From an uncultured Nitrospiraceae bacterium (GTDB lineage: Bacteria; Nitrospirota; Thermodesulfovibrionia; Thermodesulfovibrionales; Dissulfurispiraceae), in assembly GCA_947085205.1 (NCBI GenBank), contig CAMTVO010000062.1:1-39201 (forward strand): 39,201 nucleotides of DNA, read 5' to 3'. Below, piece by piece: positions 9,090-11,959 of this stretch. The notes beneath the pieces were generated by a model. The model ran no database searches and had not been told where the DNA came from. It worked only from the letters and a program-made list of their open reading frames with translations. The number at the start of each line of letters is the position of its first letter. Position 1 is the stretch's first letter. Made by a program: the position numbers and the translations under genes.

Positions 9090-9183
9090 ACTTTATTAGT
9101 TTAACAGTATTTGAAAAAAATAAAACATGTCAATCAGTCATGCCTCCGTTGACACCCGTTGGCAGCTTTTGTTAGGTTTAAAC

Positions 9184-10287
9184 ATGTCAGGTTCAACTAA
9201 AAGGTTTTTTGGCTGTGTCGAAATCCCCCTTCAAAGGGTTCACATCGAGCTTACAAATGTCTGCGACTTCAACTGCGTGTTCTGTCCAAAATCCGAGATG
9301 AAAAGGAAATACGGCTATATGGATACCGGCCTTGCCAAAAGGATAATTTCCGAACTCAAGGAAAACAATATATGCGAAAAAATCACATTCCATGTAATGG
9401 GAGAACCTACGCTGCATCCTGATTTCTTTGACATCCTTTCCCATGCCCAGAATAAATGCATAAAAGTCGGACTTACAACCAATGGAGGAGGACTTGGCAG
9501 AGAGACCGGAAGACGCTTGCTGGACTATGACCTCTACCAGATTGATATTTCTCTTCAGACGCCTGATGTGATGTCATTTGAACTCAGAAAGGCAAGGGCG
9601 CTGAACTTTGAAGAATACCTTAAAGGTATAATTGAGTTTTTTTATTCTTATCACGCAAGGCATAACGATACGATATTCAAGTTTCGCTTTTTGAACACAA
9701 GATTTCGTAAAAAAGATATGGAAAAGAGAAGAGGAGCTATAAAAGTTATTTCATCCACTAATGAGTTTCGCGATACCTTTAAGTACTGGGCAGGACGCAT
9801 TTATGACATGCTCGGCGTAGAACAGCGCAAAAGGGATGCAGCGATGAAACGCATAGAAAAGCTTGTGTCCTATAAGTGGAATGTGGTAGAGATTTATCCA
9901 AATGTGTTTTTTGAGACTTATGTATTGGAAGACTGGGGGCATGCATTCGATGATGAAAGTATCCGAGGCGCATGGGCGGGATACTGTTTTGGGATGAGAG
10001 ACCACTTTAGCATACTTTATAACGGCGATGTAACATTATGCTGCGTGGATTTCGATGGCAGTACGAAGATAGGCAATCTCCACGAATCATCTCTGAAGGA
10101 AGTGCTTTTTTCGAATGAACTCGGCAGGATTATTGACGGCTTTAAAAAATTCAAGGTTGTTCATCCCTACTGCAAGAAATGCCTTGGGAGCAAATCAATG
10201 GCATCTTGGATATTCAAACCTCTCGTCTCTGTAATGGCGCTCAAGACCCTTAAGCCTTTTTTCTATTCAAAGACCAAACTCTACTAA
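9184..10287 (+). CDS. radical SAM protein with SPASM/twitch domain
   Basis: ELTNVCDFNCVFC CxxxCxxC, GEPTLHP, C-terminal C...NGDVTLCC...CKKC; start at 9184 or 9127. Confidence 0.88.
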   Translation: MSGSTKRFFGCVEIPLQRVHIELTNVCDFNCVFCPKSEMKRKYGYMDTGLAKRIISELKENNICEKITFHVMGEPTLHPDFFDILSHAQNKCIKVGLTTNGGGLGRETGRRLLDYDLYQIDISLQTPDVMSFELRKARALNFEEYLKGIIEFFYSYHARHNDTIFKFRFLNTRFRKKDMEKRRGAIKVISSTNEFRDTFKYWAGRIYDMLGVEQRKRDAAMKRIEKLVSYKWNVVEIYPNVFFETYVLEDWGHAFDDESIRGAWAGYCFGMRDHFSILYNGDVTLCCVDFDGSTKIGNLHESSLKEVLFSNELGRIIDGFKKFKVVHPYCKKCLGSKSMASWIFKPLVSVMALKTLKPFFYSKTKLY

Positions 10288-10377: not shown

Positions 10378-10406
10378 TTGACAATATATTCAAATATTAT
10401 TATATT
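10378..10406 (+). promoter_or_regulatory. sigma70 promoter with overlapping AT-rich imperfect palindrome (probable ArsR operator)
   Basis: TTGACA at 10378 followed by ATATATTCAAATATTATTATATT. Confidence 0.5.
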
Positions 10407-10439
10407 TTTATCAAAACATGCGGCATGGAGGTGTGTTTA

Positions 10440-10781
10440 ATGCGTTCATTGGGGAAAAGAATAGAGCTTCTTAAGATAGTAGCCCATCCAGTGAGAATAA
10501 AGATACTGGATGAACTTGTGAAAGGAGTAAAATGCGTCACTGATTTCGAGGAATTTCTCGATATAAGTCAGCCGAATGTTTCTCAGCATCTGTCACTTTT
10601 AAGAAGATACGGAGTGATAGACTATTATATGGATGGACGGCTCAGGTGCTATTTCCTCAGGGATCCGATAATACCGGATATTTTAGAATTGCTAAAGAAG
10701 GATTACATCGAGGAAATGCCTGCGCCTGCATGCTGTCCTGTAACAAAAAAGGGGAAATATCCTGGTAAAAGGAGGGGATAA
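10440..10781 (+). CDS. ArsR/SmtB-family regulator with C-terminal CC motif
   Basis: AHPVRIKIL, CV, ISQPNVSQHLSLLR, tail PACCP; RBS GGAGGTG before ATG 10440. Confidence 0.9.
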   Translation: MRSLGKRIELLKIVAHPVRIKILDELVKGVKCVTDFEEFLDISQPNVSQHLSLLRRYGVIDYYMDGRLRCYFLRDPIIPDILELLKKDYIEEMPAPACCPVTKKGKYPGKRRG

Positions 10782-10784
10782 AAA

Positions 10785-11129
10785 ATGCAAAAAGAGATTG
10801 TGATGTTTCTTTCGACAACGCCTTATAGCTTTGAAAATTCGCATACAATTTTCAAACTTGCTGATGCTGCGATGAGTAAGGGGCATAAGGTCAGGCTCAT
10901 AGCATCCGGAGACGGTGTGTTCTCAATTGTAAAAGGACAGCTTCCGCCGTCATTATCAGCCCTTGATGACCTTGTCGGCAGAGGTCTTAAAGTGGATATA
11001 TGAACAGGCTGCATGCAGACCCGCGGTCTTGCGGCAGAGGACTCTGTTGGAAGGGGAGAGATGAGTTCTTTAAAAGGGCTTTTTAATGTAATCAAGACAA
11101 ATCCGATTTTCTTGAATTTCGGAGTATAG
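10785..11129 (+). CDS. DsrE/TusD-family sulfurtransferase, probable selenoprotein (UGA 11001-11003, UxxC)
   Basis: TTPYS and GDGV DsrE motifs; the frame continues 41 codons past the TGA (VDI-U-TGCMQTRG...FLNFGV*) to give a full-length 114-aa DsrE that ends at the RBS of the next gene. Confidence 0.85.
11009..11037 (+). promoter_or_regulatory. candidate bacterial SECIS element
   Basis: CTGC-AT-GCAGACC-CGC-GGTCTTGC-G-GCAG hairpin; G-containing apical loop about 18 nt after the UGA. Confidence 0.6.
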
Positions 11130-11138
11130 GGGGAGCAC

Positions 11139-11495
11139 ATGGGCAGTATAAGCATCATTTTAAGAAGGCCGCCTTATGGAACAATTGATGCATCTGAAGC
11201 AATAAGGCATGCTCTTGGCGGAGTAATCGAGGACATGGCAGTAAAATTGATACTTGTGGACGGCGGTGTGGCTGCTGCTAAGAAAGAACAGGACACATCA
11301 AATACCGAATATTTAAGCATAGAATCTGGAATCAAGGATTGCACTGATATGGGCGCTGATGTATATGCAGATAAAAATTCCATAAAAGAGGAGCATCTTG
11401 ATAAAGACGAAATCATAGAGGGAGGAGTGATTATTGCAAACGGCTTGGAGATTGCGGAGATTATAAAAGAATCTGATGTAACAATGATTTTTTAG
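11139..11495 (+). CDS. DsrF/TusC-family protein
   Basis: LRRPPYGT..SEAIR, LVDGGV; second gene of a DsrEFH-like trio. Confidence 0.8.
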   Translation: MGSISIILRRPPYGTIDASEAIRHALGGVIEDMAVKLILVDGGVAAAKKEQDTSNTEYLSIESGIKDCTDMGADVYADKNSIKEEHLDKDEIIEGGVIIANGLEIAEIIKESDVTMIF

Positions 11496-11506
11496 GGGGA
11501 GGAGTT

Positions 11507-11788
11507 ATGCTTGTGATCATAAAAAGTTCGCCGGATACTTCTGAAGGCAAGAGGGGTGTTAAGCTTGCAAGGGATATGGCTGCCGATATTTGCCTCATAC
11601 AGAATGCCGTATATTTTGCCCAAAAGGAAAGACTCGAGGGCTTTTGCGGGACAGCATACATCCTTGGCGAGGATGCAAGACTGAGGGGATTAAGCGAAGA
11701 GGATATGGGAAAGGGGATAAGGGAAATAGATTACGAAGGCCTTGTGGATTTGATGGTGAAAGAGGATAAGGTGGTGGGAGCTTTCTAA
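11507..11788 (+). CDS. DsrH/TusB-family protein
   Basis: LIQNAV, EDARLRG, IDYEGLVDL. Confidence 0.85.
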   Translation: MLVIIKSSPDTSEGKRGVKLARDMAADICLIQNAVYFAQKERLEGFCGTAYILGEDARLRGLSEEDMGKGIREIDYEGLVDLMVKEDKVVGAF

Positions 11789-11959
11789 ATTGTAGTATAT
11801 TATAAACACAATCCACTCATTTGCCTGAAATAATCTCTCATCATCAGAAAATCTTTGCCTCTACTGCTTTCTTTTTCTTTTCATCCCTTGCCTGTGTTAC
11901 AAGTATCTCCACTGCCATAATCCCTGATGTCAGAACCCACATCTCATTAGAGAAAAAAC

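What the first reader, a model, noticed from the sequence alone, without database searches (positions are those of the whole stretch)
10440..11788. Hidden selenoprotein: ArsR-controlled DsrE(Sec)-DsrF-DsrH sulfur/selenium relay operon
Seen: the ORF track stops DsrE at 72 aa, but TGA 11001-11003 is followed by 41 in-frame codons (U-TGC-MQTRG...) that complete a 114-aa protein ending just before the dsrF RBS, and a hairpin (11009-11037) with a G-containing loop lies about 18 nt downstream. Known: in TusD/DsrE the persulfide-carrying Cys78 lies in the context hydrophobic-C-x(5)-RRG, matching the UGA position here; DsrE-like selenoproteins have been reported. Inference: a complete DsrEFH/TusBCD-like heteromer with a UxxC catalytic site, stand-alone (no dsrABC, tusA/E or mnmA nearby) and led by a Cys-rich ArsR (tail ACCP), suggests an inducible sulfane-sulfur, selenium or metalloid handling module.
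Basis: partly seen in the sequence, partly recalled or inferred. Interest (0 to 1): 0.8.

Follow-up and report, generated by a model that had tools for sequence, protein, structure and literature searches.

The report
Selenocysteine DsrEFH trio, SQR-operon remnant
A small sulfur-carrier-type gene that gene callers cut short at a stop codon very likely encodes selenocysteine there, and with its two partner genes and repressor it is the intact front half of a conserved Nitrospirota operon whose sulfide-oxidase-like gene is missing at this site, so it likely moves reactive sulfur, or possibly selenium.

Summary
Observation confirmed. UGA 11001-11003 reads through to a 114-aa DsrE (U-T-G-C). The genome has selA, selB, selC and selD. 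UxxC DsrE-like selenoproteins have been listed since 2005.

'Stand-alone' is misleading. In relatives the operon usually continues into a type I sulfide:quinone oxidoreductase (48 of 80 loci), often with MMPL, LolA-like and barrel genes. Among 61 genomes this SQR occurs only in the 37 with the Sec trio (23 of 37; 0 of 24). At this same site relatives show intact or decayed sqr; here it is gone while the trio stays under purifying selection. The genome also has a separate Cys-type dsrHEF-tusA beside dsrABC.

Best reading (0.55): an ArsR-repressed carrier of sulfane sulfur. Main rival (0.22): selenium delivery to SelD, since the only selD sits in this operon in two relatives. I found no paper on this operon, but this scan reported it before on other DNA. 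New variant of a known kind.

The parts
10378..10406 (+). sigma-70-type promoter, TTGACA-17-TATATT
   Evidence: 11 of 12 consensus match, best of 8 sites in the region; TTGAC lies 9-12 nt before the palindrome in 42 of the 49 upstream regions scored for this
10388..10411 (.). predicted ArsR operator, 10-4-10 inverted repeat overlapping the spacer and -10 box
   Evidence: 18 of 20 match to a consensus read by eye from the same upstream regions; 46 of 56 regions score 16 or more versus 3 of 1120 shuffles; best site in the own genome. Binding not tested
10440..10781 (+). ArsR/SmtB-family repressor, 113 aa, Cys32, Cys70, Cys98-Cys99
   Evidence: PF01022, NF033788 over cut-off; the four Cys kept in 58, 59, 58, 58 of 59 homologues
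10785..11129 (+). DsrE-like selenoprotein, 114 aa, U73-x-x-C76
   Evidence: DsrE/YchN fold by Foldseek on a model of mean pLDDT 74
11001..11003 (+). in-frame UGA, predicted selenocysteine, column of A. vinosum DsrE Cys78
   Evidence: 80 of 80 loci TGA; profile alignment to 2HY5_A, weak E 0.025, and to YchN CxxC, E 6.9e-06
11021..11034 (+). predicted bacterial SECIS: stem CCGC/GCGG, loop GGUCUU
   Evidence: synonymous freeze at codons +7 to +10 (59/61, 61/61, 56/61, 57/58 one codon, versus 0.30-0.62 at four-fold sites upstream); GU at +23/+24 in 79 of 80; compensatory C-G to U-A in 2 of 80 at the closing pair
11139..11495 (+). DsrF-like protein, 118 aa, Cys68
   Evidence: profile hit to 2HY5_B DsrF, E 2.8e-14; Cys in 70 of 78
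11507..11788 (+). DsrH-like protein, 93 aa
   Evidence: PF04077; TIGR03011 48.8 bits versus cut-off 49.2; TM0979 and 2HY5_C hits
11789..11959 (.). 171-nt gap before tRNA-Asp where relatives carry sqr-mmpL-lolA-like-barrel genes
   Evidence: L103 intact and G008 (L051) decayed pieces between dsrH and the same tRNA region

Best explanation
The locus encodes an ArsR repressor and a DsrE-DsrF-DsrH trio whose DsrE very likely carries selenocysteine at the column of the sulfur-binding cysteine, and the trio likely works as an inducible cytoplasmic carrier of sulfane (zero-valent) sulfur, left over from a longer operon that in relatives also encodes a type I sulfide:quinone oxidoreductase. Shown: genes, UGA, conserved hairpin, Sec machinery, operon order in relatives, loss of the sqr half at this site. 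Inferred, in order: (1) SelB reads the hairpin and inserts Sec73 (about 0.97); (2) the three proteins form a DsrEFH-like heteromer (about 0.8); (3) the ArsR dimer binds the palindrome over the promoter and lets go when its cysteines are modified, most likely by polysulfide or persulfide (autorepression about 0.85, inducer about 0.5); (4) Sec73 takes sulfane sulfur, from SQR products in the full operon and from TusA, rhodanese or desulfurase persulfides in genomes such as this one, and either hands it on or releases it by closing a Se-S bond with Cys76 (about 0.55). It is not the housekeeping Dsr relay: a Cys-type dsrHEF-tusA beside dsrC does that job by position.
For: Gene after dsrH in 80 loci: SQR 48, NifS-like 7, SelD 1, other or none 18, contig too short or no dsrH 6. 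The SQR is closest to Aquifex SQR 3HYV (E 1.7e-100) and keeps its cysteines (40, 42, 42 of 42). In 61 genomes the SQR was found in 23 of 37 with the Sec-DsrE and 0 of 24 without, 22 of the 23 within about 1.5 kb of it. Further neighbours are sulfur-transfer families: DsrE2-like 13, YeeE 4, rhodanese 3, plus MMPL 29, LolA-like 19, barrel 17 of 80. Cys-type sister trios from metagenomes also sit beside SQR-like genes (3 of 15 adjacent). Known DsrEFH carry persulfide on this cysteine (PMC13293266). 55 of 61 genomes have dsrA, so sulfide and sulfane sulfur are daily substrates.
Against: This genome has no such SQR (tblastn, genome search and profile search negative with positive controls; assembly 89.7% complete), and 14 of 37 trio genomes lack it, so the trio is kept for something that does not need SQR. 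The ArsR lacks the alpha2 Cys of BigR/SqrR persulfide sensors (Asp24 at that place) and has an alpha3 Cys and a C-terminal Cys pair, more like metalloid sensors. SelD, TsoY and YedF neighbours point to selenium. The genomes are kin and the 80 loci overlap the 61 genomes, so counts are not independent. No activity was measured.
Confidence: 0.55

Rival explanations
1. The trio is a selenium carrier: it takes Se from a NifS-like lyase or from SQR-oxidised selenide and delivers it to SelD, sorting Se from S in a sulfide-rich cell, with the ArsR sensing selenium.
For: selD lies within 8 kb on the same strand in 7 of 80 loci; in G058 it lies between arsR and dsrE and in G005 directly after dsrH, and it is the only selD found in each. 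NifS-like gene directly after dsrH in 7 of 80; selenoprotein TsoY after dsrH in L111. Cys-type sister trios, which need no Sec, follow selD directly in 3 of 15 loci (two are the same proteins), one with a LysR just under the selenium-LysR cut-off. Mammalian SQOR oxidises selenide (10.1101/2023.04.13.535674, start of abstract only).
Against: SQR follows dsrH six times as often as NifS and SelD together; selD is far away in this genome (C19); 59 of 61 genomes have selA but only 37 have the trio, so it is not needed to make Sec; the NifS-like protein scores far higher on NifS/IscS models than on the Sec lyase model; co-expressing selD could simply supply the Sec-DsrE.
Confidence: 0.22
2. A second, inducible isoform of the Dsr-linked DsrEFH that feeds DsrC, letting these sulfate-reducer-type cells oxidise sulfide (SQR to DsrEFH to DsrC to reversed DsrAB) or disproportionate sulfur.
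For: dsrA in 55 of 61 genomes; this route is proposed for DsrEFH type II with SQR in cable bacteria (PMC13293266).
Against: 54 of 61 genomes already have the Cys-type DsrE found beside dsr genes here; the Sec clade does not group with it in a poorly resolved quick tree (35% identity over 71 aa); no tusA hit in any of 80 loci; G006, G015 and G054 have the trio without a dsrA match.
Confidence: 0.1
3. A TusBCD-like relay for tRNA 2-thiouridine or cofactor sulfur.
For: Same fold family; mnmA in 5 of 5 relatives tested; NifS-like neighbours in 7 of 80.
Against: Far below TusD/TusC cut-offs (17.5 vs 89, 27 vs 94 bits); missing in 24 of 61 genomes although the modification is a housekeeping one (own knowledge); repressor control and sqr linkage do not fit.
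Confidence: 0.05
4. An arsenic or heavy-metal response module, with Sec as a soft-metal ligand.
For: ArsR cysteine layout; several selenoproteins are tied to metalloid resistance (PMC13188914); an ArsM-like gene lies near one Cys-type sister locus.
Against: No ars or mer family among the recurrent neighbour clusters of 39 loci.
Confidence: 0.05
5. The UGA is a true stop or a private error, and dsrE is a pseudogene.
For: Databases hold the 72-aa form: none of the best 120 hits covers more than 63% of the query; G006 has the UGA gene but no selA match.
Against: 80 of 80 TGA and never TAA/TAG; purifying selection after the UGA; G006 has selB.
Confidence: 0.01

Closest known systems
'DsrE-like protein' prokaryotic selenoprotein family (PF02635, UxxC; PMC1088965, PMC1794560, PMC13188914)
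   Same: Pfam family, UxxC motif, in-frame UGA with bacterial SECIS.
   Different: The passages seen list it as a rare entry (2 Sargasso sequences, 1 genome, Desulfovibrio vulgaris) with no function or operon; here it is the E subunit of an E-F-H trio in 37 of 61 genomes of one order. No NCBIfam model over cut-off. Orthology to the D. vulgaris protein was not tested.
DsrEFH type I of Allochromatium vinosum (PDB 2HY5) and TusBCD of E. coli (2D1P)
   Same: Three paralogues in E-F-H order, each matching its counterpart chain; reactive residue at the Cys78 column.
   Different: Sec instead of Cys, a second Cys three residues on, below TIGR cut-offs, no rdsr or tusA/tusE neighbours, own ArsR.
DsrEFH type II / YTD cluster (PMC13293266)
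   Same: Divergent DsrEFH in organisms with reductive-type Dsr, common in Nitrospirota; SQR invoked upstream in the model.
   Different: Type II has Cys in 99.3% and lies with tusA and yeeE; the own-genome dsrH-E-F-tusA on C10 fits that description (my inference; their HMMs were not available). The Sec trio is a separate lineage; 'selen' does not occur in that paper's main text.
Persulfide-sensing operons (SqrR/BigR with sqr, rhodanese, YeeE; PMC10054925)
   Same: ArsR repressor ahead of sqr and sulfurtransferases.
   Different: The regulator lacks the alpha2/alpha5 Cys pair; a DsrEFH trio and MMPL-LolA-like-barrel genes are present in the passages' place of a rhodanese alone.

Membership tests
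DsrE-like selenoprotein (PF02635, UxxC) | PF02635 domain over gathering score | tested here: met
   48.9 bits vs 22.7
DsrE-like selenoprotein (PF02635, UxxC) | in-frame UGA at a column that is Cys in homologues, UxxC | tested here: met
   Cys at the column in 120 of 150 representatives, gap or truncated in 20, other in 10; TGA in 80 of 80 close loci
DsrE-like selenoprotein (PF02635, UxxC) | bacterial SECIS: loop 3-9 nt with G in first two places, stem 4 bp or more, 16-37 nt from UGA (model as given in PMC13188914) | tested here: met
   6-nt loop GGUCUU, 4-bp stem, 21 nt; conserved; bSECISearch itself not run; fold not better than shuffles
DsrE-like selenoprotein (PF02635, UxxC) | selA, selB, selC, selD in the genome | tested here: met
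   all four over cut-off; SelD has its own TGA
DsrE-like selenoprotein (PF02635, UxxC) | Se incorporation in the protein | not testable with these tools
   needs 75Se or mass spectrometry
DsrEFH type I / TusBCD | score over TIGR03012/03010/03011 cut-offs | tested here: not met
   17.5/89.25, 27.3/94.15, 48.8/49.2
DsrEFH type I / TusBCD | three syntenic subunits homologous to E, F and H | tested here: met
   F and H each in 78 of 80 loci
DsrEFH type I / TusBCD | linkage to oxidative dsr genes or to tusA/tusE | tested here: not met
   no TusA hit in 80 loci; no dsr genes among recurrent neighbours
DsrEFH type I / TusBCD | stable heterotrimer or hexamer; persulfide transfer | not testable with these tools
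   needs co-purification and transfer assays
DsrEFH type II (YTD) | score over 80 bits with the authors' three HMMs | not testable with these tools
   no HMMs or sequences in the supplement listing seen
DsrEFH type II (YTD) | synteny with tusA and yeeE; conserved Cys | tested here: not met
   tusA 0, yeeE 4 of 80 loci; residue is UGA-encoded
SqrR/BigR persulfide sensors (ArsR cluster 4) | Cys pair in helices alpha2 and alpha5 | tested here: not met
   BigR alpha2 Cys aligns with Asp24 (definition from PMC10054925)

The most novel reading that the evidence does not exclude
A third DsrEFH lineage that uses its own selenocysteine to sort chalcogens: SQR oxidises sulfide and selenide, the Sec-DsrEFH picks up the zero-valent product and routes selenium to SelD, and the MMPL-LolA-like-barrel genes move zero-valent sulfur or selenium across the envelope, all under an ArsR with a new four-cysteine sensing site.
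Probability: 0.18. Interest if true: 0.8.

Novelty: new variant of a known kind. Interest (0 to 1): 0.48.

Why it matters
DsrEFH and SQR are used as markers of sulfur oxidation, and a 2026 paper argues that divergent DsrEFH lets sulfate reducers run their pathway backwards. A Sec-containing DsrEFH tied to the only type I SQR found in these Thermodesulfovibrionales is invisible to protein-based surveys because its DsrE is filed as a 72-aa fragment. It may contribute to the published remark that most Thermodesulfovibrionia have 'dsrFH, but no dsrE' (PMC11033732), though truncation cannot be the whole reason, since the full protein also fails the TIGR03012 cut-off. It gives a concrete system in which to ask what selenocysteine adds to a persulfide carrier. 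This copy adds one point: the trio is kept after sqr is lost, so it has an SQR-independent use.

Tried and rejected
Complex prediction of DsrF with DsrH: no answer, score 0.01; not used either way; DsrE was not in the job. Single-sequence PDB search returned designed PPR repeats on top, an artefact. The own SelD hairpin sits at another spacing, so it gave no shared SECIS pattern; my G23-U24 pattern, made after seeing the homologues, matches 63 of 67,473 TGA triplets in the genome. The upstream radical SAM gene is not part of the operon: a promoter lies between, and it was beside arsR in 1 of 80 loci. RNA run X4 has contigs over parts of arsR, dsrE and dsrF but also over intergenic DNA, so expression is not shown. 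The tree is the quick method, 70 of 130 inner branches open; it shows the Sec clades together (93, not starred) and allows no order of events. The six-frame profile search printed nothing and had no control; it was redone with controls. mnmA was not found in this genome but is in 5 of 5 relatives, so I read that as an assembly gap. Literature: DsrE+selenoprotein, DsrEFH+Nitrospirota (34), DsrEFH+selenocysteine (35; 1 unrelated paper), SQR/Thermodesulfovibrionia/DsrE (61), sqr/MMPL/DsrE/ArsR (62), TsoY (78), Tso operon (93), dsrE/UGA/Thermodesulfovibrionales (104; swamped by DsRed) showed no description of this operon; the library lacks most subscription papers, and the Tso paper of Haft and Tolstoy was not held.

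Full report
Observation. The frame from ATG 10785 has one TGA at 11001-11003 and closes at TAG 11127-11129; read with TGA=U it gives 114 aa with U73-T-G-C76-M-Q-T-R-G. Pfam PF02635 spans residues 5-104, across the UGA. ArsR (10440-10781), DsrF-like (11139-11495) and DsrH-like (11507-11788) genes flank it on the same strand with gaps of 3, 9 and 11 nt. Named homologues are Nitrospirota, Thermodesulfovibrionales or Dissulfurispiraceae.

The UGA is selenocysteine, as far as sequence can show. The genome has selA, selB, selD and tRNA-Sec over their cut-offs; selA was found in 59 of 61 related genomes. The best 80 of 132 genome loci all have exactly one TGA, at this column, in two clades (61 and 19 loci). 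Among the best 150 of 341 distant representatives the column is Cys in 120 (94 of them CxxC), a gap or truncation in 20, other in 10. A profile of 16 read-through proteins aligns the column with the CxxC of YchN (E 6.9e-06) and, weakly, with Cys78 of A. vinosum DsrE (E 0.025; residue counted from the printed alignment). The model has the DsrE/YchN fold. The part after the UGA is under purifying selection (pN/pS 0.14-0.23). One genome, G006, has the UGA gene and selB but no selA match.

SECIS. A shorter hairpin is: stem 11021-24/11031-34, loop GGUCUU. Synonymous positions are frozen over codons +7 to +10 only, in both clades, and G+23/U+24 is kept in 79 of 80; 91.5% of cells pair against 34-57% for slid controls (47 of the 73 distinct related sequences plus the window counted together as 47 rows; relatedness inflates the shuffle control). 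It meets the published bacterial model (PMC13188914, passages).

Subunits and regulator. Profiles of the second and third proteins hit DsrF (2HY5_B, E 2.8e-14) and TM0979/DsrH, so the trio is E-F-H by homology, though all three fall under the TIGR cut-offs. A TTGACA-17-TATATT promoter at 10378-10406 is overlapped by a 10-4-10 palindrome at 10388-10411 that recurs upstream of arsR in 46 of 56 regions against 3 of 1120 shuffles, and has no better copy in the genome: the layout of an autorepressed operon. The ArsR keeps four cysteines but not the alpha2 cysteine of BigR-type persulfide sensors, so its inducer is open.

Context changes the reading. In the 80 loci the gene after dsrH is an SQR in 48, NifS-like in 7, SelD in 1, something else or nothing in 18, and unknown in 6. 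The SQR is type I by its nearest structure (Aquifex 3HYV, E 1.7e-100). MMPL/HAE3 (29), LolA-like (19), an outer-membrane barrel-like protein (17; label by position and a sub-cut-off Pfam hit only), DsrE2-like (13), a second ArsR (14), YeeE (4) and rhodanese (3) follow. Of 61 genomes, 37 have the Sec-type DsrE at E below 1e-15 (one hit is cut by a contig end before the UGA); the SQR was found in 23 of those and none of the other 24. At the window's own chromosomal site, L103 has intact sqr-mmpL-lolA-barrel before the same tRNA region, the single-contig genome G008 has only fragments of those four genes there, and the window has 171 nt. No SQR was found anywhere in this genome (89.7% complete). 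So this is most simply a deletion derivative that kept arsR-dsrEFH intact; direction of change is inferred from the fragments in G008, not from a rooted tree.

A second trio. Contig C10 carries dsrH-dsrE(Cys, CxxC)-dsrF-tusA next to dsrK/M-like, dsrC and dsrAB genes; its DsrE type was found in 54 of 61 genomes. It fits the Nitrospirota-rich DsrEFH type II of PMC13293266 (parts 1-4 of 7 read, supplement part 1 and a word search). The Sec trio is 23-35% identical to it and apart from it in a weak tree.

Selenium thread. selD lies in the locus in 7 of 80 cases, and in G005 and G058 the operon holds the only selD found (the other three genomes tested have it elsewhere). TsoY follows dsrH in L111. 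The nearest Cys-type relatives, 15 metagenome loci picked by a Cys pattern, are again E-F-H trios (F in 12) beside SQR-like (3 adjacent), selD (3, two identical) or NifS-like genes (3). The same three neighbours in a lineage that needs no Sec make selenium handling a real rival.

Mechanism. Most likely the ArsR holds the operon off until sulfane sulfur builds up; the Sec-DsrEFH then binds it at U73 and passes it on or releases it through the UxxC pair; in full operons SQR makes the load and the envelope genes may move it. Every step after gene content is inferred. Odds: sulfane-sulfur carrier 0.55, selenium carrier 0.22, DsrC-feeding isoform 0.10, tRNA or cofactor relay 0.05, metalloid response 0.05, dead gene 0.01.

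Known and new. UxxC DsrE-like selenoproteins are listed in PMC1088965, PMC1794560 and PMC13188914 (table passages). SaoD and YedF are other DsrE-like proteins of selenium neighbourhoods and are not selenoproteins at this site in the passages seen. PMC10591310 (passages) treats DsrEFH as mostly absent from reducers; PMC11033732 (passages) notes dsrFH without dsrE in Thermodesulfovibrionia. Eight word searches found no account of a Sec-DsrEFH-SQR operon; supplements of most of these papers were not seen and could list such genes. I reached the SQR link; earlier notes of this scan, seen, report the same operon in other genomes and are not independent support. Verdict: real, a new variant of known kinds, here in a shortened form; interest 0.48.

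Noticed in passing
G000:C10:39625-40995 (L087:7126-8495): Cys-type dsrH-dsrE-dsrF-tusA cluster beside dsrK/M-like, dsrC and dsrAB; probably DsrEFH type II.
   Followed up: partly
L085:6978-7337 (G004): The Dsr-linked DsrE has TGA at the second Cys of its CxxC; the hairpin behind it has no G in the loop, so nonsense or error is likelier than Sec.
   Followed up: partly
G000:C8:8523 (- strand): A TGA with the same G23-U24 hairpin pattern inside a short Cys/His-rich frame; possible further selenoprotein, unverified.
   Followed up: no
P0146, P0174, P0179: Other DsrE clusters end exactly before the Cys column (75-98 aa), so further hidden Sec-DsrE families are likely.
   Followed up: no
P0126, P0123, P0128: Members nested in Sec clade 2 with Cys, or with the motif degraded, suggesting Sec-to-Cys change and loss.
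   Followed up: partly
G000:C16:71-1306: A 60% identical homologue of the operon's barrel-like gene at a contig start, followed by a binding protein and a two-component pair; upstream DNA not assembled.
   Followed up: partly
L111:9102-10715: Selenoprotein TsoY and a DsrE2-like gene replace sqr after dsrH.
   Followed up: partly
G000:C58:16871-17200: Homologue (70%) of the operon's second ArsR lies directly upstream of rnf-like genes (rnf label by eye).
   Followed up: no
window 9127-10287: Radical SAM/SPASM protein with no NCBIfam family over cut-off among the 25 shown; not part of the operon.
   Followed up: partly
G005, G028: Each has two copies of the Sec-DsrE; in G005 one from each clade, one before selD and one before sqr.
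   Followed up: partly
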